From Candidatus Nanohaloarchaea archaeon (GTDB lineage: Archaea > Nanohalarchaeota > Nanosalinia > Nanosalinales > Nanosalinaceae): a DNA stretch of 64,000 bases. Location: contig JBDGRE010000001.1 of assembly GCA_042218325.1 (NCBI GenBank), forward strand, positions 68,356-132,355. The letters run 5' to 3'. The position numbers were made by a program, and so were the translations under genes. How positions within the stretch are numbered: position 1 is the first letter of the stretch; every line of letters starts with the position of its first letter. Positions 48,279-54,043 of the stretch are shown here, piece after piece. Under the pieces are notes generated by a model. That model had not been told where the DNA came from. It did not search any database and was given only the letters and a program-made list of their open reading frames with translations.

Positions 48279-48459
48279 ATGCGGCAGGGTGGACGTTTTT
48301 GGACCGCGCGCATCTCCCGATGACGTAGACAGCCGCTTTACGGTCCAGGGTGGATGTTCGGGCTCTTCTCGCACGCACGGCAGTTTATCTTTGACTGGTT
48401 CATACCTGCAGATCTGCGCTGTGCTGGAGGCTTCTTGGCGCAGAACATGGTATAGGTAA
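48279..48459 (+). promoter_or_regulatory. Extra Trp-type frameshift cassette (uORF 48279-48323; +1 frame to 48459)
   Basis: ATG CGG CAG GGT GGA CGT TTT TGG (MRQGGRFW). Confidence 0.5.
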
Positions 48460-48576
48460 TACAGGTACTTTCCGCCGATAAATATCGTAAAGAGCTGCTG
48501 GTATGCATTTTCAGGGCTTTTAGAGGCTTGAAAGCTACTTAAATCTTTTCTTACAACAGAAAAATACGTGAGTAAC

Positions 48577-48961
48577 ATGGCACACACCACTACGGACGAA
48601 GAAAATGCAGAAGCCCGCAAGGGTGGACGTTTTTGGAAAACCTAGCATAGAAGTGGTCGCAGACCTGGCGGACCCGACCCCAGTTTACGTTTCCGGCCAG
48701 CAGGACACCGGTTTCTACCGCGAGATAACCTGTGATGCCGACCTCGTGATCCTGAGGAACAAAGAGGAATTCTCGCAGGAACCCGGAGATATCCTCGACG
48801 GGGATTACAGGGAGCTGCTACAGAGGTCAGACCAGGATATCTACGTTCACGAGGACGCGCCCAGAGACTTCCCTGGGATGAACCCGTACGTGGTCGAAGG
48901 GCTGGCCGCCAGCGGCGTGGAAGAACTGGCGGAAGCCTACTTGGAGCAGGGCCATGAATAA
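48577..48961 (+). CDS. Hypothetical protein probably made by +1 frameshift at TTT-TGG (48631-48636); leader of trpS
   Basis: 0 frame MAHTTTDEENAEARKGGRFWKT* (48577-48645); +1 frame is the acidic ORF 48605-48961. Confidence 0.65.
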
Positions 48962-48986
48962 AATACCTGCCCGTGGAAGTGATTGA
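48954..48986 (+). CDS. 10-aa relay ORF into trpS
   Basis: ATGAATAA overlap with upstream stop; MNKIPARGSD; TGA-C-ATG into trpS. Confidence 0.45.
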   Translation: MNKIPARGSD

Positions 48987-48987
48987 C

Positions 48988-50097
48988 ATGCCAGACATAG
49001 ACCCGTGGGGAGACGTCGAGGTGGGAGACTACCGCGAAAAGATGGAGAAGTTCGGCATCGAACCAGTCGGCGAGATAGAGGACAGGATGCCGGACCACAG
49101 GTACGTCCGCCGCGGGATAATATTCGGTCACCGCGGCATGGACGAGTTCCTCGACGCCCGGGAAAACGGCGATAACGTGGCGATGATGACGGGTATCATG
49201 CCGTCCGGCGTCTTCCACATGGGCCACAAGTGCGTGGTCGACCAGGTCACGATGTACCAGGAGATGGGGGCCGACATCACCCTCGCGGCCGCGGATATAG
49301 AGGCTTACAACACCAGGGAGATGCCCATAGGGAAGGCCCGCGAACTTGTCATCGAGGAGTATCTGGCCAACTACGTGGCGCTCGGCCTCGACCTCGAGCA
49401 GACTGATTTCTACTTCCAGAGCCAGGCCGGCAACGACCACCACGCCCGGGCCAAGATGTTCGCTCGATACCTCACACAGAACGAGGTCGAATCCACGTAC
49501 GGCAGCGCCGCACCGGGGAAGATTACCTCCGCGCTGACGCAGTACGCCGACATACTGAGGCCCCAGTTCCCGGAGAACGGGGGCCCGAAGCCCACAGTCG
49601 TTCCTGTAGGCGTGGACCAGGATCCTCATATACGGCTGACAAGGGAGGTCGCACGCAAGTACCGCGGCCAAGGCTTTGTCAAGCCCGCCTCAACTTACAA
49701 CAAGTTCATGCGCGGGCTCCAGGGCGGCAAGATGTCGTCGAGCAAGCCCAAGAGCTACATCGCACTGACCGACGGTGTAGAAGATGCGAAGCAGAAGGTC
49801 GACGAGGCCAAGACCGGCGGCAGGGACACACTGGAGGAGCAGCGGGAGAAAGGTGCCCGGGTCAAGGAGGACATGGTCTTCGAGCTGCTTGCCTTCCACC
49901 TGATCGAGGACGACTCCGAGCTTGAACGCATCCGGGAAGAGTACAGCTCGGGAGAGATGCTCTCCGGCGAGCTGAAGCAGATAGCGAAGGAAAGACTGGA
50001 GGAGTTCCTGAGGGAGCACCAGCAGAAGCGTGAAGAGGCCCGTGCCGAGGTGGAGCAGTTCGTCCGCGAGAACGTTCCCGAGGGAGAACTGGTTTAA
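48988..50097 (+). CDS. trpS: Tryptophanyl-tRNA synthetase
   Basis: IDPWG, PSGVFHMGH (HIGH), PVGVDQDPH, KMSSS, AKTGGR. Confidence 0.95.
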   Translation: MPDIDPWGDVEVGDYREKMEKFGIEPVGEIEDRMPDHRYVRRGIIFGHRGMDEFLDARENGDNVAMMTGIMPSGVFHMGHKCVVDQVTMYQEMGADITLAAADIEAYNTREMPIGKARELVIEEYLANYVALGLDLEQTDFYFQSQAGNDHHARAKMFARYLTQNEVESTYGSAAPGKITSALTQYADILRPQFPENGGPKPTVVPVGVDQDPHIRLTREVARKYRGQGFVKPASTYNKFMRGLQGGKMSSSKPKSYIALTDGVEDAKQKVDEAKTGGRDTLEEQREKGARVKEDMVFELLAFHLIEDDSELERIREEYSSGEMLSGELKQIAKERLEEFLREHQQKREEARAEVEQFVRENVPEGELV

Positions 50098-50121: not shown

Positions 50122-50817
50122 ATGCTGCCCGAGCTTATACTGCGCGAGGAGGAGCACGAGAACCTCCCTCTGCTGGCACTGCTCGGTATCTTATCCGGGC
50201 TGCTCGGTTTCGCGGCCGCGAAGATGCTGTTCCCGTCGCAGGCCGACCTTCTCGGCGTGATATTCGCGTCGATACCGCTGATATTCCCACTCACGAGCTA
50301 TTTCCTTGAGCGTGAAAACGAGACAGCGCCGCACCTGCCCGAGGTCGAGGTCTACGGCTCGGTGTTCTTCGGCGAGGTCGTCGCGTTCTTCCTGCTCGGC
50401 ATGTACTTCCAGGACGCGTTCTCGCTCCAGAACCAGATAATAGGTGCGACCGGCAACGCGGTCAACGCTGTCTCGTTTATGTCTATACTTTCCAACAACC
50501 TGATGGTTTTCCTCGGTATCCTGGTCGTCGCCTCGGTGATTGGCTCCGCGGGTGCGTTCGTCCTGACCTGGAACGCATCGGTGCTCGGAGTCTTCTTCGC
50601 CGACCTTTTCAGGGAGTCCGCCATCAAACCGCTGGCTTACGTCCCCCACGCCACGTTCGAGATGGGAGGCTTCATAATCGCCGGCATCTCCGGTTCCATG
50701 ATATCCGCCGCGCTGTACCGCGAGCATTTCGAGAGGGATACCTGGATCGATATAGCGCAACTCGTCGCCGCGGGCCTTCTGCTTATACTGTTCGGGGCGT
50801 TCCTGGAGACGGCTTAA
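50122..50817 (+). CDS. Stage II sporulation protein M (SpoIIM)-like membrane protein
   Basis: ILSNNL, WNASVLG, PHATFE, GAFLE. Confidence 0.75.
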   Translation: MLPELILREEEHENLPLLALLGILSGLLGFAAAKMLFPSQADLLGVIFASIPLIFPLTSYFLERENETAPHLPEVEVYGSVFFGEVVAFFLLGMYFQDAFSLQNQIIGATGNAVNAVSFMSILSNNLMVFLGILVVASVIGSAGAFVLTWNASVLGVFFADLFRESAIKPLAYVPHATFEMGGFIIAGISGSMISAALYREHFERDTWIDIAQLVAAGLLLILFGAFLETA

Positions 50818-50847
50818 CGACTTAAAGCTCCGCATCCATCAAGCCTT

Positions 50848-50974
50848 ATGACCGCAGGAACACGTTTACCAACTGGTCCCACCGACTACAAGGGTGGATG
50901 TTTTTTCCGGGGATAGACCCTGCCACGGCTGCGCTGAAATATTAAAGGTTAATCGGCGAGGTGTATCGCTGTGA
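50848..50974 (+). promoter_or_regulatory. pheS leader: uORF 50848-50916 with putative +1 shift site TTT-TTC; +1 frame ends on pheS GTGA
   Basis: MTAGTRLPTGPTDYKGGCFFRG*; AAG GGT GGA TGT TTT TTC at 50890-50907; +1 frame open 22 codons to TGA 50972-50974. Confidence 0.78.
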
Positions 50975-52377
50975 GACTCTCGAGCCAGGCAGCACAGATA
51001 CTCGAAGAGCTACGCGGCCGTGGAGAGGCCACGGTCGAGGCGCTGGAGAAAGAGGGCTACGACCAGTCGATGGTTCACAGGGCGGCGCTGGAGCTTCAGG
51101 AGAAAGGCCTCGTGGAGTACGAGGAAGAGGAGGAGATAGTGCACCAGATGACGGATAAAGGCCGTGAGGTCATCGAGAACGGCTCACCGGAGCACCGCCT
51201 CGTCCAGAGACTGGAGGACTCCGGGAAACAGATGTCGGAGCTCCAGGACCTGGACCTCGACGTCGCTCTTGGAAAGGCCCGGGAGAAGGGATGGGTCGAA
51301 ATCGAGAACGGCGAGGTCGAGCTCACCGGCGACGGCGAGGCGAACCTCGACACGGATCCTGCCCAGAGGAGGCTGGAGAGCCGCGAGTTCGACGAAGACC
51401 TGCGGGAACGCGGGCTGGTAGAGGCCGTGAACCAGACGGAACGCGTGGTAAGACTCACGCAGGAGGGCCGGTCGCTGGCGGAATCCGAGATAGAGGAAGA
51501 GTTCAACCTTGAGGCCCGTGTGAAGACGCCGAGGACAGGAAAGAAGCACTTCTACAAACAGATAATCGACTACGCCCGGAGGAAGTGGGTAGAGATGGGG
51601 TTCGAGGAGATGAGCGGCGACTTCGTAGTCCCGAGCTTTCTCAACTTCGACGCGCTCTACACGCCGCAGGATCACCCGGCCCGGGAGATGCAGGACACCT
51701 TCTTCATGGAAACGCCTGCTGTATCAGACATAACCGGCTACGATGTGAAGGTGGAGAACGTGAAGAACACCCACGAGAACGGGTGGATCACGGGCAGCGA
51801 CGGCTGGGGCTACGAGTGGTCGCGTGAAGAGGCGGAGAGAAACGTGCTGAGAACACATACTACCGCGGTTTCTATCCGCAGGATACACGAGATAGAGGTG
51901 AACGAGGAGGAGCTGCCGAGAAAATTCTTCACGGTCTCAAGAAACTTCAGGAACGAGACGGTCGACAGGTTCCACCTAGCAGAGTTCTACCAGACCGACG
52001 GCATAGTGGTCGGCGAAGACCTCAGCTTCCGCGACCTGAAGGGATACATAAGCGAGTTCTTCGAGAAGATGGGCTACGACGACTTCCGCCTGGTACCGTC
52101 CTACTTCCCTTACACCGAGATGAGTGTGGAGGTCCACGTCTGGGACGAGAAAGACGGAGAGTGGGTCGCTCTCGGAGGCGCAGGAATGTTCAGGCCTGAG
52201 GTCGTGAATTCGATGCTCGGCTTCGAGGCAACAGTGCTCGCCTGGGGTCTCGGCATCCCGAGGATAGCCATGGGTGCCGCGGAACTGGAAGATATACGTG
52301 AGCTGTACAGGAACGACGTAGAGATACTCGAGAACACGCCGGCCTGGAGGCCGCAGAACATGGAGGGTGAAGGATAG
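50971..52377 (+). CDS. pheS: Phenylalanyl-tRNA synthetase alpha subunit
   Basis: NFDALYTPQDHPAREMQDTF, LRTHTT, FRNE, YFPYTE, GMFRPE, AWGLG. Confidence 0.96.
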   Translation: MRLSSQAAQILEELRGRGEATVEALEKEGYDQSMVHRAALELQEKGLVEYEEEEEIVHQMTDKGREVIENGSPEHRLVQRLEDSGKQMSELQDLDLDVALGKAREKGWVEIENGEVELTGDGEANLDTDPAQRRLESREFDEDLRERGLVEAVNQTERVVRLTQEGRSLAESEIEEEFNLEARVKTPRTGKKHFYKQIIDYARRKWVEMGFEEMSGDFVVPSFLNFDALYTPQDHPAREMQDTFFMETPAVSDITGYDVKVENVKNTHENGWITGSDGWGYEWSREEAERNVLRTHTTAVSIRRIHEIEVNEEELPRKFFTVSRNFRNETVDRFHLAEFYQTDGIVVGEDLSFRDLKGYISEFFEKMGYDDFRLVPSYFPYTEMSVEVHVWDEKDGEWVALGGAGMFRPEVVNSMLGFEATVLAWGLGIPRIAMGAAELEDIRELYRNDVEILENTPAWRPQNMEGEG

Positions 52378-52378
52378 G

Positions 52379-54043
52379 ATGGCGCACATCGAGGTGGACA
52401 AGAGAGAGTTCGACGAGCTTGTAGGCGCCGAGATCGATGAACAGAGGCTTCACGAGGACGCATCGATGCTCGGCGTCCACTGGAACCACGTAGAAGGGCC
52501 GAAATGGGATGTCGAGGTGTACCCGAACAGGCCTGACCTCCTATCGGTAGAAGGCCTCGCCCGGGCGTACAGGGGATTCTTCGACATCGATACCGGAAGA
52601 GAGGTATACGACGTGGAGGATGGAGATATACAGGTCGAGGTCGACCCTTCTGTCAAGGAGGTGCGCCCGTTCATCGGTATCGCGGTAGTGAGAGGCCTCG
52701 AGCTCACGGAGAAGAAGATAAACGGCCTGATACAGCTGCAGGAAAAGCTTCACCAGACTCTGGGGAGGAGGAGAGACAAGCTCGCCATCGGCCTCCACGA
52801 CCTGGAAACCGTCGAGGCGCCTTTCACGTACCGGGCGGTGGAACCCGAGAAGGTATCTTTCACGCCGCTGGAGTACGAGCGCGACATGCAGCTCGGCGAG
52901 ATACTGGACGAGCACGAGAAGGGCCAGGAGTACGCATGGATACTGGAGGACGAGGACCGCTACCCTCTGATCGAGGATTCAGAAGGTCGTGTACTTTCCT
53001 TCCCGCCGATAATCAACAACCAGCTGACGGAGGTCGAAACGGGAACAAGGGATATACTCGTGGACGTGACCGGCAAAGAGCTCGAAACAGTGAAGAAGGC
53101 GCTGAACATAATAGCGACTGCGCTCGCGGAACGCGGTGGCGACATAGAGACGGTCGAGGTAGACGGCGACAGGATGCCGGAAATCGAGCCAGGGAAAAGG
53201 GAACTCGACTTGGATTACTTCCGCGGTATCTCGGGCCTGGGACTGGATGCGGGACAGGTCATCGAAAGGCTCGAGAGGATGAAGATGGGCGCGGCCAGGA
53301 AACAGGATACTATAGAAGTGGAAGTACCTGCTTACCGGACTGACGTGATGCACCAGTATGATTTGATAGAGGACGTGGTGATAGCGCACGGCTACGGGAA
53401 CGTGGGCCCGGAGCTTCCGGAGGTAGACCAGTTAGCCCGGGAACGACCGGTCGAGGACTACACCCGCTTGCTGAGAGATACCCTGCAGGGAACCGGCGCG
53501 CTTGAGGCCCACACATACATACTTTCGAACCGGGAGAAACTGTTCCACAGGATGGATATCCCGGAAGAAGATATCGCCGAGATGTCGAATGCCCTTACCG
53601 AGGATTATACTGCGGTAAGGAACTGGCTGCTCCCCTCGCTCATGGAGGTCCTGCAGAGGAACAGGCACCGCTCCTACCCGCAGAAGTTCTACGAAGTGGC
53701 GGACGTATCGGTGCTTGACGACAGCGATACCGGCGCCTCCAACCGGAGGAAGCTGGCCTACGTCCACTCCTCGAACGATGTGGATTACAACGATGTCCGC
53801 CAGGTACTGCAGGTGCTTGAACGCGACCTCGGCGTCGAGTTCGAGGTAAGATCGCCGGGTATCGACTGTTACGAGGACGGCCGGGCCGCGACCGTGTACC
53901 TCGACGGTGAAGAGGTGGGCGCTATCGGGGAGTTTTCTCGCGAAGTCCTTGGTAACTGGCAGCTGGAGATGCCGGCTGCCGGATTCGAGCTGGACGTCGA
54001 GAAGCTGTTGCGGCTTTCATCCAAGGCCGAACATGACGGGTAG
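52379..54043 (+). CDS. pheT: Phenylalanyl-tRNA synthetase beta subunit
   Basis: PNRPDLLSVEG, QEKLH, SFPPIIN, PAYRTDVMH..DLIED. Confidence 0.95.
   Translation: MAHIEVDKREFDELVGAEIDEQRLHEDASMLGVHWNHVEGPKWDVEVYPNRPDLLSVEGLARAYRGFFDIDTGREVYDVEDGDIQVEVDPSVKEVRPFIGIAVVRGLELTEKKINGLIQLQEKLHQTLGRRRDKLAIGLHDLETVEAPFTYRAVEPEKVSFTPLEYERDMQLGEILDEHEKGQEYAWILEDEDRYPLIEDSEGRVLSFPPIINNQLTEVETGTRDILVDVTGKELETVKKALNIIATALAERGGDIETVEVDGDRMPEIEPGKRELDLDYFRGISGLGLDAGQVIERLERMKMGAARKQDTIEVEVPAYRTDVMHQYDLIEDVVIAHGYGNVGPELPEVDQLARERPVEDYTRLLRDTLQGTGALEAHTYILSNREKLFHRMDIPEEDIAEMSNALTEDYTAVRNWLLPSLMEVLQRNRHRSYPQKFYEVADVSVLDDSDTGASNRRKLAYVHSSNDVDYNDVRQVLQVLERDLGVEFEVRSPGIDCYEDGRAATVYLDGEEVGAIGEFSREVLGNWQLEMPAAGFELDVEKLLRLSSKAEHDG

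What the first reader, a model, noticed from the sequence alone, without database searches (positions are those of the whole stretch)
50848..50974. pheS leader: TTT-TTC shift site, +1 frame ends on GTGA
Seen: probable leaderless ATG at 50848 (CTTAAAG about 25 nt upstream); 0 frame ends ...YKGGCFFRG*; +1 frame SGDRPCHGCAEILKVNRRGVSL* ends at TGA 50972-50974, overlapping the pheS GTG. The pheS SD (GAGGTG) lies within a possible hairpin, GGCGA-GGTGTA-TCGCT, which a translating ribosome would open. The only Phe codons in the leader are at the shift site.
Basis: partly seen in the sequence, partly recalled or inferred. Interest (0 to 1): 0.88.

Follow-up and report, generated by a model that had tools for sequence, protein, structure and literature searches.

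The report
Amino-acid-sensing frameshift leader before pheS
A tiny leader gene in front of the phenylalanyl-tRNA synthetase gene of a salt-lake nano-archaeon belongs to a widespread, apparently undescribed family of switches that seem to make the ribosome slip one base forward when one particular amino acid runs short, so switching on the matching synthetase.

Summary

The pheS leader (50848-50916) carries a motif, AAG-GGU-GGA-YGU-UUU-XXX. That motif recurs 76 times in 31 of 50 related Nanohaloarchaeal genomes; a reversed-pattern control gave 1 match.

- **Reading frame.** The motif always sits in the same frame of a tiny, promoter-proximal ORF.
- **Sensor codon.** The codon after UUU matches the downstream synthetase: GGA-GlyRS, UCC-SerRS, ACC-ThrRS, GUA-ValRS, UGG-TrpRS, UUC-PheRS. 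In other families UGU precedes CysRS. I found no mismatch.
- **Frame openness.** Frame 0 stops after a median of 9 codons. The +1 frame stays open for at least 22 codons in 73 of 73 genuine sites.
- **Coupling.** The +1 frame usually ends on the synthetase start (ATGA/GTGA; here GTGA at 50971-50974) or runs straight into a protein.
- **Stimulator.** GGGUGG can pair with the 16S 3' end, 4 nt before the rare wobble-read UUU. This is the release-factor-2 (prfB) layout.

Best reading (confidence about 0.65): a hungry-codon +1 frameshift switch coupled to reinitiation at pheS.

Caveats: a second, conserved promoter probably also gives leader-independent pheS mRNA. A GUG inside the motif could start the +1 ORF instead.

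The parts
50821..50827 (+). P1: TATA-like box CTTAAAG, 20 nt before the leader ATG. It sits just after the SpoIIM-like gene's stop, where relatives have the pheS promoter.
   Evidence: Family-wide, a start codon 26-31 nt after a TATA-like pentamer and open to the motif is in frame 0 in 50 of 73 sites, in +1 in 2 and in +2 in 1. No transcription start data exist.
50848..50916 (+). Leader ORF, frame 0, 22 codons (MTAGTRLPTGPTDYKGGCFFRG), stop TAG 50914-50916.
   Evidence: Homologous leaders precede pheS in G001 (MSPSEAQGTLKGGRFFRL) and G063 (MSLSLKGGRFFEY).
50892..50897 (+). GGGTGG: Shine-Dalgarno-like stimulator, 4 nt before the slippery codon.
   Evidence: Invariant in every motif copy found with the patterns used; one G000 copy has AGGTGG. 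It can form 6 pairs (2 of them G.U) with the 16S 3' end ..GGAUCACCUCC of the same-genus genome.
50899..50907 (+). Shift cassette: TGT (E-site, YRY type), TTT (slippery P-site codon), TTC (Phe sensor codon in the A site).
   Evidence: TTT makes up only 12% of Phe codons in long ORFs of this genome.
50906..50974 (+). +1-frame ORF entered after the shift: 22 codons (SGDRPCHGCAEILKVNRRGVSL), stop TGA 50972-50974. If started at the internal GTG instead, it begins at 50894.
50941..50947 (+). P2: TATA-like box ATTAAAG, 23 nt before the pheS GTG. This is the position of the promoter of leaderless pheS in relatives; it lies inside the +1 ORF.
50958..50963 (+). GAGGTG: Shine-Dalgarno sequence of pheS, 7 nt before the GTG.
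   Evidence: An SD-like pentamer occurs in 3 of 28 distinct family-level pheS loci: both leader-bearing ones and L022. It is also present in the third leader-bearing pheS, L063.
50971..50974 (+). GTGA: overlap of the pheS start with the +1-frame stop; proposed termination-reinitiation point.
   Evidence: The same overlap occurs at pheS of G001 (GTGA) and G063 (ATGA).
50971..52377 (+). pheS, phenylalanyl-tRNA synthetase alpha chain (468 aa, GTG start).
   Evidence: Pfam PF01409 at E 3.4e-75. GTG start in 22 of 22 family relatives.
52367..54043 (+). pheT, beta chain, overlapping pheS by 11 nt.
48568..48645 (+). Sister element: Trp leader (..EARKGGRFWKT), motif at 48621-48633. Its +1 frame runs without a stop into the 118-aa ORF that ends at 48961, just before the TrpRS-type gene (48973-50097).
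48279..48323 (+). Sister element: second Trp leader (MRQGGRFWTARISR), motif at 48287-48299. Its +1 frame is open for 52 codons, to TAA 48457-48459.

Best explanation
The element is a Phe-specific member of a family of translational switches found across the phylum. The proposed sequence of events is as follows.

1. Promoter P1 (50821-50827) gives an mRNA that starts at or next to the leader AUG (50848).
2. Ribosomes read frame 0 until UUU (50902-50904) is in the P site and the sensor codon UUC (50905-50907) is in the A site.
3. If Phe-tRNA is plentiful, UUC is decoded. The ribosome then stops at UAG 50914-50916, 55 nt short of pheS, and nothing follows.
4. If Phe-tRNA is scarce, the A site stays empty. 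Two features then favour a forward slip. GGGUGG is paired with the 16S 3' end only 4 nt behind the P-site codon. The pairing of tRNA-Phe with the rare UUU codon is by weak wobble. Peptidyl-tRNA-Phe slips one base forward onto UUU.
5. Reading continues in the +1 frame for 22 codons and ends at UGA 50972-50974, on top of the pheS GUG.
6. The ribosome reinitiates there, helped by GAGGUG at 50958-50963. This raises synthesis of PheRS alpha and, through the 11-nt overlap, of the beta chain.
7. A second promoter, P2 (50941-50947), probably supplies basal, leaderless pheS mRNA independently of the leader.

**Shown here:** the motif, its frame, the cognate-codon rule, the open +1 frame, the stop/start overlaps, the possible rRNA pairing and the codon rarity.

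**Inferred:** that slippage occurs, that it responds to charged tRNA, that reinitiation follows, and both transcription starts.
For: 1. **Motif recurrence.** The motif has 76 matches in 31 of 50 family genomes against 1 control match. A looser pattern gives 105 against 13. It matches in 47 of 70 genomes of the phylum, in 4 of its 5 families.
2. **Only the motif is conserved.** Flanks carry about 0 bits. The exceptions are A at -1 (65 of 72) and A at -2 (55 of 72).
3. **Cognate-codon rule, 75 distinct exact-motif sites.**
   - GGA precedes the GlyRS-type cluster in 11 of 11.
   - UCC precedes SerRS in 6 of 6.
   - ACC/ACA precedes ThrRS in 5 of 5.
   - UUC precedes PheRS alpha in 3 of 5.
   - GUA precedes a class I ValRS-like gene in 4 of 8.
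   - UGG has TrpRS within 750 nt in 8 of 27. Others precede a PALP enzyme, and one is fused to a PF00591 (TrpD-type) protein.
   - No non-cognate synthetase follows any site.
4. **The rule held on new data.** In other families UGU precedes CysRS (PF01406) in 3 of 3, and ACC precedes ThrRS and UCC SerRS. In the own genome, variant motifs precede GlyRS, ThrRS and ValRS.
5. **Frames.** After the sensor codon, frame 0 closes after a median of 9 codons (range 3-26) and the -1 frame after a median of 13. The +1 frame is open for at least 22 codons in 73 of 73 genuine sites (median 38). The 2 remaining matches (CTC, TTA) lie in long ORFs and have +1 runs of 2 and 14 codons.
6. **Where the +1 stop falls.**
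   - It overlaps the start as ATGA/GTGA in ThrRS 4 of 5, GlyRS 7 of 11 and PheRS 3 of 3.
   - It forms ATGCTTGA in SerRS 5 of 6.
   - The ValRS start lies 6-12 nt after the stop in 3 of 4.
   - The +1 frame runs into a protein of 88-502 codons at 13 Trp sites.
7. **Ribosomes enter in frame 0.** The promoter-proximal start codon is in frame 0 in 50 of 73 sites, in +1 in 2 and in +2 in 1.
8. **prfB-like anatomy.**
   - GGGUGG can form 6 pairs with the 16S 3' end.
   - The spacer to the P-site codon is 4 nt, against 7 nt between the pheS SD and its start.
   - The P-site codon is always UUU, although UUC makes up 88% of Phe codons.
   - The E-site codon is always of YRY type.
   - Passages of the review PMC5009743 describe the SD-like stimulator, the CUU_U shift site with UUU_U in a minority of species, and weak E-site pairing for release factor 2.
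9. **Tandem sites.** In L079 and L160 the second motif has no start codon of its own and lies in the +1 frame of the first.
10. **SD before pheS.** Among the 28 family-level loci it occurs in the leader-bearing loci and in only one other.
11. **Strain variant.** A variant contig has 5 substitutions in the leader region. None lies in the motif and there is no indel.
Against: - There is no RNA, ribosome-profiling or protein evidence. No RNA run was listed for the locus.
- The motif contains a GUG in the +1 frame, so the +1 ORF could start there without any slippage. The C/U variation in the motif is synonymous in that frame (GAC/GAU).
- For Gly, Val, Thr and Ile sensors, the slipped tRNA-Phe would re-pair on UUG or UUA, with a wobble mismatch.
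- P2 is conserved, so pheS probably does not depend on the leader for basal expression.
- The pheS leader is rare: 2 of 37 distinct pheS loci, plus G063.
- With an SD present, ribosomes might start at pheS on the long mRNA without coupling. No significant masking structure was found.
- Relatives are not independent, so the raw counts overstate the support.
Confidence: 0.65

Rival explanations
1. There are two overlapping leader ORFs and no frameshift. The +1 ORF starts at the GUG inside the motif (giving MDVF..). The frame-0 ORF modulates it, for example by a ribosome stalled at the sensor codon or by ribosome traffic. Coupling to pheS at GTGA works as in the main model.
For: - A GUG is present in every motif copy, in the +1 frame.
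- The +1 frame is closed just upstream of the motif in most sites, so this GUG is its first possible start.
- Ile- and Val-class +1 ORFs end in Ile- or Val-rich runs, like classical attenuator peptides.
- The Y position of the motif is synonymous in the +1 frame.
Against: - No conserved ribosome-binding site precedes the GUG. Flanks carry about 0 bits.
- Promoter-proximal start codons feed frame 0, not +1: 50 against 2 of 73.
- A ribosome stalled with UUU in the P site would cover a GUG 8 nt upstream. Starvation would then lower, not raise, expression of the cognate synthetase.
- The +1 peptide is not conserved in variant motifs: VDV, VAT, VAA and VDI all occur.
- This model gives no reason for the rare UUU codon or for the fixed 4-nt spacing.
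Confidence: 0.17
2. Frameshifting does occur at the motif, but at a fixed ratio. It does not respond to amino-acid supply and merely sets a low translation level for the downstream gene.
For: The same anatomy as in the main model supports slippage as such. Set-ratio frameshifting is a known class (PMC8211752, section 7).
Against: A fixed-ratio device has no need for the A-site codon to match the amino acid of the downstream synthetase. The match holds in every synthetase-linked case examined, including the Cys class found afterwards.
Confidence: 0.08
3. The motif is a binding site on RNA or DNA for a protein or a tRNA (T-box-like), and the reading frames are incidental.
For: - Conservation is at the nucleotide level. 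GGU is never replaced by another Gly codon in the copies found. The residue before Phe varies among R, C, H and Y.
- UGG followed by one base recalls the T-box bulge that pairs with the tRNA 3' end (recalled, not tested against a model of my own).
Against: - No Rfam family matches; the best E-value is 6.3.
- Minimal leaders start only 3 nt before the motif (MKGGRF..), which leaves no room for a tRNA-binding stem.
- The base after UGG is A or C irrespective of amino-acid class.
- Incidental frames cannot explain an open +1 frame at 73 of 73 sites or the stop/start overlaps.
Confidence: 0.05
4. The locus is ordinary. The T run is the terminator of the upstream SpoIIM-like gene, pheS is made only from leaderless mRNA from P2, and the small ORFs are meaningless.
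For: - Oligo-T tracts terminate archaeal transcription (established knowledge).
- P2 lies exactly where the pheS promoter lies in 26 leader-less family relatives.
Against: - In classes whose sensor codon does not begin with U, the T run is only 3-4 long.
- The motif, its frame, the cognate codon and the +1 architecture are conserved across at least 8 amino-acid classes.
Confidence: 0.03

Closest known systems
Bacterial release factor 2 (prfB) autoregulatory +1 frameshift
   Same: Both have a short frame-0 ORF and an internal Shine-Dalgarno-like sequence a few bases before a wobble-read slippery codon ending in U_U. Both have a slow A site that decides between termination and a +1 shift, and an E-site codon that matters. 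UUU_U is used as the shift site in a minority of RF2 genes (PMC5009743, passages).
   Different: - The slow A-site codon here is a sense codon that reports one charged tRNA, not a stop codon that reports a release factor.
- The organisms are archaea.
- At pheS the product is not fused. It is reached by termination-reinitiation.
- One motif serves at least 8 specificities through the change of a single codon.
Hungry-codon frameshifting (Gallant) and yeast Ty1 CUU_AGG_C
   Same: [quoted passage not shown]
   Different: Ty1 exploits a constitutively rare tRNA to set a ratio. The review states that for starvation-induced frameshifting giving useful trans-frame products 'no examples are known'. The present family would be such a use.
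Ribosome-mediated attenuation leaders of bacteria (pheST, pheA and trp leaders; recalled)
   Same: Both have a short leader ORF that senses charged tRNA through cognate codons and controls a synthetase or an amino-acid pathway gene.
   Different: - There is a single sensor codon, not a run of codons.
- There are no alternative terminator and antiterminator hairpins.
- The output is a change of reading frame.
- The Ile- and Val-class relatives, however, add a codon run in the +1 ORF.
T-box riboswitches of bacteria
   Same: They play the same physiological role: one modular leader family whose specificity is set by one codon, placed before synthetase, transport and biosynthesis genes.
   Different: T-boxes bind tRNA directly, without a ribosome, and have a long structured leader. 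There is no Rfam match here, and there is no room for such a structure.
Termination-reinitiation coupling at ATGA overlaps in archaea (PMC6728339; search listing and start of abstract only)
   Same: GTGA/ATGA overlap between the upstream ORF's stop and the downstream start.
   Different: Here the upstream ORF is reachable only after a change of frame, which makes the coupling conditional.
Leaderless polycysteine short ORFs of mycobacteria (preprint 10.1101/834739) and the C. elegans zip-2 uORF frameshift (PMC11831180); search listings and first lines only
   Same: The first are leaderless short ORFs acting as amino-acid sensors. The second uses a frameshift from an upstream ORF as a stress switch.
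   Different: The organisms and signals differ. Neither combines a cognate sensor codon with an SD-stimulated +1 shift.

Membership tests
GGGUGG-UUU-X leader family of Nanohaloarchaea (defined here) | Motif [A/G]GGUGG-N-YRY-UUU in frame GGU GGN YRY UUU XXX. | tested here: met
   AAG GGT GGA TGT TTT TTC at 50890-50907.
GGGUGG-UUU-X leader family of Nanohaloarchaea (defined here) | The codon after UUU is cognate to the downstream synthetase. | tested here: met
   TTC (Phe) precedes pheS. The same holds at pheS of G001 and G063.
GGGUGG-UUU-X leader family of Nanohaloarchaea (defined here) | Short frame 0, with a long open +1 frame that ends on or next to the downstream start. | tested here: met
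   Frame 0 stops after 3 codons. The +1 frame runs for 22 codons and ends in GTGA.
GGGUGG-UUU-X leader family of Nanohaloarchaea (defined here) | Frame-0 start codon at the distance from a TATA-like box expected for a leaderless mRNA. | tested here: inconclusive
   TTAAA starts 26 nt before the ATG. The spacing is 2-3 nt shorter than at P2 and at the G001/G063 leaders. No transcript data exist.
prfB-type SD-stimulated +1 programmed frameshift | Internal SD-like sequence able to pair with the 16S 3' end, a few bases 5' of the shift codon. | tested here: met
   GGGUGG against ..CACCUCC of the same-genus 16S gives 6 pairs including 2 G.U, with a 4-nt spacer. The own genome's 16S is not assembled.
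prfB-type SD-stimulated +1 programmed frameshift | Slippery P-site codon that can re-pair in the +1 frame. | tested here: met
   UUU_U re-pairs perfectly at pheS. UUU is the rare, wobble-read Phe codon at 12% use.
prfB-type SD-stimulated +1 programmed frameshift | The slow A-site signal is a stop codon read by the factor that the gene encodes. | tested here: not met
   The A-site codon is a sense codon (UUC), so this is not a member of the RF2 system. It only works like it.
prfB-type SD-stimulated +1 programmed frameshift | Frameshift product demonstrated. | not testable with these tools
   No RNA or protein data.
Ribosome-mediated transcription attenuator (pheM/pheL type) | A run of cognate codons plus mutually exclusive terminator and antiterminator hairpins. 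| tested here: not met
   There are two Phe codons only. Folding z-scores are -0.81, -1.71 and +0.62, and no structure is conserved.
T-box riboswitch | Match to the Rfam T-box model, and a specifier-loop stem upstream of the tRNA-end-binding bulge. | tested here: not met
   No Rfam match up to E = 10 apart from two chance-level hits to other families. Minimal leaders begin 3 nt before the motif.
Termination-reinitiation gene pair | Stop of the upstream ORF overlaps or abuts the start of the downstream gene. | tested here: met
   GTGA at 50971-50974. That reinitiation occurs is inferred.

The most novel reading that the evidence does not exclude
Nanohaloarchaeota carry a phylum-wide family of codon-programmable translational switches. 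One 13-16 nt cassette comprises an SD-like GGGUGG, a 4-nt spacer and a slippery UUU. It makes the ribosome shift +1 when the next codon is hungry. Exchanging that single codon retargets the switch to Phe, Trp, Ser, Thr, Gly, Val, Ile or Cys. This would be the first natural regulatory use of hungry-codon frameshifting, the first regulated frameshift in cellular archaea, and the archaeal functional counterpart of the bacterial T-box.
Probability: 0.6. Interest if true: 0.95.

Novelty: new variant of a known kind. Interest (0 to 1): 0.9.

Why it matters
**A gap in archaeal regulation.** How archaea match synthetase levels to amino-acid supply is essentially unknown. My searches found no report of an archaeal synthetase leader:
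- Nanohaloarchaeota + frameshifting gave 0 papers.
- Nanohaloarchae + frameshift gave 7 papers, none relevant by title or abstract.
- DPANN + ribosomal frameshift gave 1 paper, on insertion sequences.
- Archaea + synthetase genes + T-box/attenuation gave only bacterial work.

**State of the recoding field.** A 2021 review of archaeal recoding lists a single -1 frameshift in cellular archaea (PMC8211752, section 7 read). The 2016 frameshifting review says that no example is known of starvation-induced frameshifting put to use (PMC5009743, passage).

**What would follow if the reading is right.**
- It fills both gaps.
- It gives a minimal, retargetable amino-acid sensor.
- The sensor codon becomes a functional label for unknown genes of these host-dependent symbionts. 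Examples are the approximately 370-aa Ile-class ORFs, the 260-aa and 140-aa Trp-class proteins, GCS2-like ligases and an M20 peptidase.
- The question becomes directly testable with reporters and mass spectrometry.

Tried and rejected
- **Rfam.** A permissive search over 50300-51500 gave only two chance-level hits, E 6.3 and 8.6.
- **RNA evidence.** No RNA holder was listed. There were 5 DNA rows from 2 studies, so no transcript starts, ends or expression could be examined.
- **Contigs.** Laying contigs showed only a strain variant. X2 gave no contig, and X5 covered only 50760-50792.
It is predicted but not better than shuffles and not conserved. I did not run a family-wide test of SD masking.
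- **-1 frameshift.** Rejected. The -1 frame closes after a median of 13 codons, and variant motifs have C before UUU.
- **T run as a universal terminator.** Rejected. It is 3-4 T long in most classes.
- **Repeat or mobile element.** Rejected. The flanks share nothing.
- **T-box-like tRNA binding.** Rejected; see the rival explanations.
- **16S rRNA.** Not found in the own assembly. I used the same-genus genome and another family genome instead.
- **Chance matches.** Two exact-motif matches (CTC in L095, TTA in L072) lie inside long ORFs and have short +1 frames. I treated them as chance and left them out of the 73.
- **His candidate.** One CAC site (L139) lacks an ATG and precedes an unrelated small ORF. 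It remains unverified.
- **Doubtful relaxed matches.** GAG and GGC sensor codons were not followed up.
- **Ile class.** It does not precede IleRS in the loci I held. The downstream ORFs of about 370 aa and 634 aa have no Pfam match at 1e-5.
- **ORF picking.** The crude picking was replaced by clustering.
- **Wyosine genes.** PF08608 was not found in the own genome (96% complete), and a Trm5-type gene is present. This is a hint only that tRNA-Phe lacks wyosine.
- **Tools and sources not available.** Supplementary files of papers were not consulted and could hold relevant proteomic or transcript data for cultured Nanohaloarchaea.
Full report
**1. The locus**

The window lies in a genome of about 1.07 Mb, 96% complete. 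Its PheS relatives in named records are all Candidatus Nanohaloarchaea or Nanohaloarchaeota. The stretch is held by DNA runs labelled salt lake metagenome.

The gene order on the + strand is:
- a class I W/Y synthetase (TrpRS type), 48973-50097;
- a SpoIIM-like membrane protein, 50122-50817;
- a 153-nt spacer;
- pheS, 50971-52377, with a GTG start;
- pheT, 52367-54043.

See the observation check for coordinates.

**2. What relatives show at pheS**

All 22 family relatives start pheS with GTG. In most of them the SpoIIM-like stop is followed at once by a TATA-like box, (T)ATTAAAG, 22-23 nt before the GTG. There is no Shine-Dalgarno sequence. This is the signature of a leaderless mRNA.

Of 37 distinct pheS loci with enough upstream sequence, only the own genome and the same-genus genome G001 carry an extra 120-160 nt. 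A third case, G063 from another genus, turned up later.

In all three leader-bearing loci the insert has the same plan:
1. a first TATA-like box;
2. an ATG 20-22 nt after it;
3. a short ORF ending ..KGG(C/R)FF..;
4. a stop three codons later;
5. a +1 frame that stays open across a second TATA-like box, at the ancestral distance from the start;
6. an SD (GAGGTG or GGAGGTG);
7. a stop that overlaps the pheS start (GTGA, GTGA, ATGA).

Own genome and G001 differ by a 42-nt (14-codon) indel inside the +1 ORF, so the frame is kept.

**3. The motif is a family**

The 19-mer around the shift site occurs three times in the own genome (control 0). The other two copies lie upstream of the TrpRS-type gene (window 48621) and of a seryl-tRNA synthetase gene. 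A fourth copy lies at window 48287.

| Pattern | Where searched | Matches | Reversed-pattern control |
|---|---|---|---|
| GGGTGGAYGTTTT | 50 family genomes | 76, in 31 genomes | 1 |
| AAGGGTGG-N4-TTT | 50 family genomes | 105 | 13 |
| AAGGGTGG-N4-TTT | 70 genomes held for the phylum | 47 genomes, in 4 of 5 families | not totalled |

I fetched the context of all exact matches, giving 75 distinct sites.

In 73 of them the motif lies in the frame GGT GGA YGT TTT XXX of a tiny ORF, M..(K/Q)GG(R/C)F-X..stop. The remaining two (CTC, TTA) lie inside long ORFs and look like chance matches.

Outside the pattern only the two preceding bases are conserved: A in 65 of 72 and A in 55 of 72. The flanks carry no information. 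The copies are therefore not repeats but independently maintained elements.

**4. The codon after UUU names the downstream gene**

Sensor codons fall into few classes: TGG 27, GGA 11, GTA/GTG 11, ATT/ATC 8, TCC 6, ACC/ACA 5, TTC 5. I clustered the downstream ORFs and annotated them with Pfam. The first downstream gene by class:

| Sensor codon | First downstream gene | Count |
|---|---|---|
| GGA | GlyRS-type | 11 of 11 |
| TCC | SerRS | 6 of 6 |
| ACC/ACA | ThrRS | 5 of 5 |
| TTC | PheRS alpha | 3 of 5 (the others: a GCS2-like ligase and an unknown 369-aa protein) |
| GTA | class I ValRS-like | 4 of 8 |
| TGG | TrpRS within 750 nt | 8 of 27 |

Other TGG sites precede a PALP enzyme, an M20 peptidase, GCS2-like ligases or unknown proteins. 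No site precedes a non-cognate synthetase.

The rule then held on data that did not define it.
- In the own genome, variant motifs precede GlyRS (AAA GGT GGA CAT TTT GGA), ThrRS (.. GGC TAC TTT ACC) and ValRS (.. GGC CGC TTT GTA).
- In the own genome the pattern [AG]GGTGG-N-YRY-TTT has exactly seven matches, all of this kind, against one in the reversed genome.
- In two other families a new class appeared. TGT precedes CysRS (PF01406) in 3 of 3. Also present were ACC-ThrRS, TCC-SerRS, and a TGG site fused to a PF00591 (TrpD-type) protein.

**5. The frames**

After the sensor codon:
- frame 0 closes after a median of 9 codons (range 3-26);
- the -1 frame closes after a median of 13 codons;
- the +1 frame is open for at least 22 codons in 73 of 73 sites (median 38).

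The +1 stop is placed as follows:
- it overlaps the downstream start as ATGA/GTGA in ThrRS 4 of 5, GlyRS 7 of 11 (three more have the start 10 nt before the stop, one 9 nt after), PheRS 3 of 3, one GCS2-like gene and one Ile-class gene;
- it forms ATGCTTGA in SerRS 5 of 6;
- the ValRS start lies 6-12 nt after the stop in 3 of 4;
- at 13 Trp sites the +1 frame runs straight into a protein of 88-502 codons, including the window's ORF 48605-48961.

Ribosomes appear to enter in frame 0. A start codon 26-31 nt after a TATA-like pentamer and open to the motif is in frame 0 at 50 of 73 sites, in +1 at 2 and in +2 at 1.

Two loci (L079, L160) have tandem motifs. The second has no start codon of its own and lies in the +1 frame of the first.

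**6. Why a +1 slip, and why there**

The same-genus 16S rRNA ends ..GGAUCACCUCC(A) (another family genome agrees). GGGUGG can pair with UCACCU through six pairs, two of them G.U. The one AGGUGG variant improves the pairing.

The helix ends 4 nt before the P-site codon, whereas the pheS SD ends 7 nt before its start. A short spacer of this kind, together with a wobble-read shift codon, a slow A site and a weakly paired E-site codon, is the anatomy of the release-factor-2 frameshift (PMC5009743, passages). That the RF2 spacer is three bases long is recalled, not read.

Other features fit the same picture.
- The P-site codon is always UUU, although UUC makes up 88% of Phe codons in this genome.
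- The codon before it is always of YRY type: CGU, CGC, CGA, UGU, UGC, UAC or CAC.
- The first Gly codon is always GGU, while the second varies between GGA and GGC.

The constraint is therefore mainly on the RNA, not on a KGGRF peptide.

No Taw1-type wyosine gene was found in the own genome. This is a hint only that tRNA-Phe is shift-prone.

**7. Mechanism proposed for pheS**

The steps are set out in the best explanation: P1 transcript, frame-0 reading, a pause at UUU/UUC when Phe-tRNA is scarce, a +1 slip onto UUU, 22 codons in the +1 frame, termination at UGA on the GUG, and reinitiation.

P2 is retained at the ancestral spacing in all three leader-bearing genomes. It probably gives basal leaderless mRNA.

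The SD would be needed only on the long P1 transcript. Among the 28 family-level pheS loci it occurs in both leader-bearing loci and in only one other, L022. It is also present in L063.

A strain-variant contig has five substitutions in the region. Two change leader residues and one changes a +1 residue. None touches the motif, and there is no indel.

**8. Weaknesses**

- All evidence is comparative, and relatives are not independent.
- The motif contains a GUG in the +1 frame, so an internal start cannot be excluded. See the first rival explanation.
- For sensor codons that begin with G or A, re-pairing leaves a wobble mismatch.
- No significant RNA structure masks the pheS SD. How uncoupled initiation on the P1 transcript is avoided is therefore open.
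- The pheS leader itself is rare within the family.

**9. Novelty**

The paper searches listed under Why it matters found no description of this element. The reviews I read give one -1 frameshift in cellular archaea (PMC8211752) and state that no utilised starvation-induced frameshift is known (PMC5009743).

The parts of the mechanism are known; their use as a retargetable amino-acid sensor is not. I therefore file it as a new variant of a known kind (regulatory +1 frameshifting) and not as a member of the RF2 system, whose defining stop-codon sensor is absent.

Noticed in passing
window 48279-48323, 48568-48645 and about 48369: There are two complete Trp-class leaders upstream of the TrpRS-type gene. 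The first leader's +1 frame also contains a degenerate third motif copy (GGGTGGATGTTCGGG). The second leader's +1 frame is fused to an unknown 118-aa acidic protein (48605-48961) with no Pfam match.
   Followed up: partly
L059, L085, L087, L092 and L140-L144, L148 (Ile and Val classes): These leaders look two-stage. A second motif follows in frame 0 (KGG(R/C/H)VLQ). The +1 ORFs end in Ile/Leu- or Val-rich runs (for example ..ILLIIILV, ..AVNVAVLH). In three Ile-class examples viewed a G+C-rich inverted repeat follows the +1 stop. Next comes an ORF of about 370 aa without a Pfam match. This looks like a frameshift gate feeding a classical codon-run attenuator.
   Followed up: partly
Trp-class +1 ORFs in L042, L046, L049, L050, L069, L073, L076: Many short Trp-class +1 ORFs end with a conserved ..(L/F)SW.. 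a few codons before their stop. This is a second Trp codon late in the shifted frame.
   Followed up: no
L079 and L160: Tandem double sites: the +1 frame of one motif delivers ribosomes in frame to a second motif of the same specificity. That would demand two successive shifts.
   Followed up: partly
L149, L152, L154 (other families of the phylum): A Cys class (UUU-UGU) lies directly before cysteinyl-tRNA synthetase with an ATGA overlap. It was not seen in the window's own family with the patterns used.
   Followed up: yes
L150; L079; L081; L083, L090, L055: Non-synthetase genes lie behind Trp or Phe sensors: a PF00591 (TrpD-type) protein fused in the +1 frame, a PALP enzyme, an M20 peptidase and GCS2-like ligases. 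The sensor codon may serve as a functional label for them.
   Followed up: partly
window 50971 and L002-L022: pheS starts with GTG in 22 of 22 family relatives, but with ATG in the other families and in G063. The reason for the conserved weak start codon is unknown.
   Followed up: no
whole genome G000: No Wyosine_form (Taw1) domain and no 16S rRNA gene were found in the 96%-complete assembly. A Trm5-type methyltransferase is present.
   Followed up: partly
window 50834, 50844, 50872, 50885, 50930: A strain-variant contig from another run of the same study differs at these five positions and has no indel. The motif and both frames are intact.
   Followed up: yes
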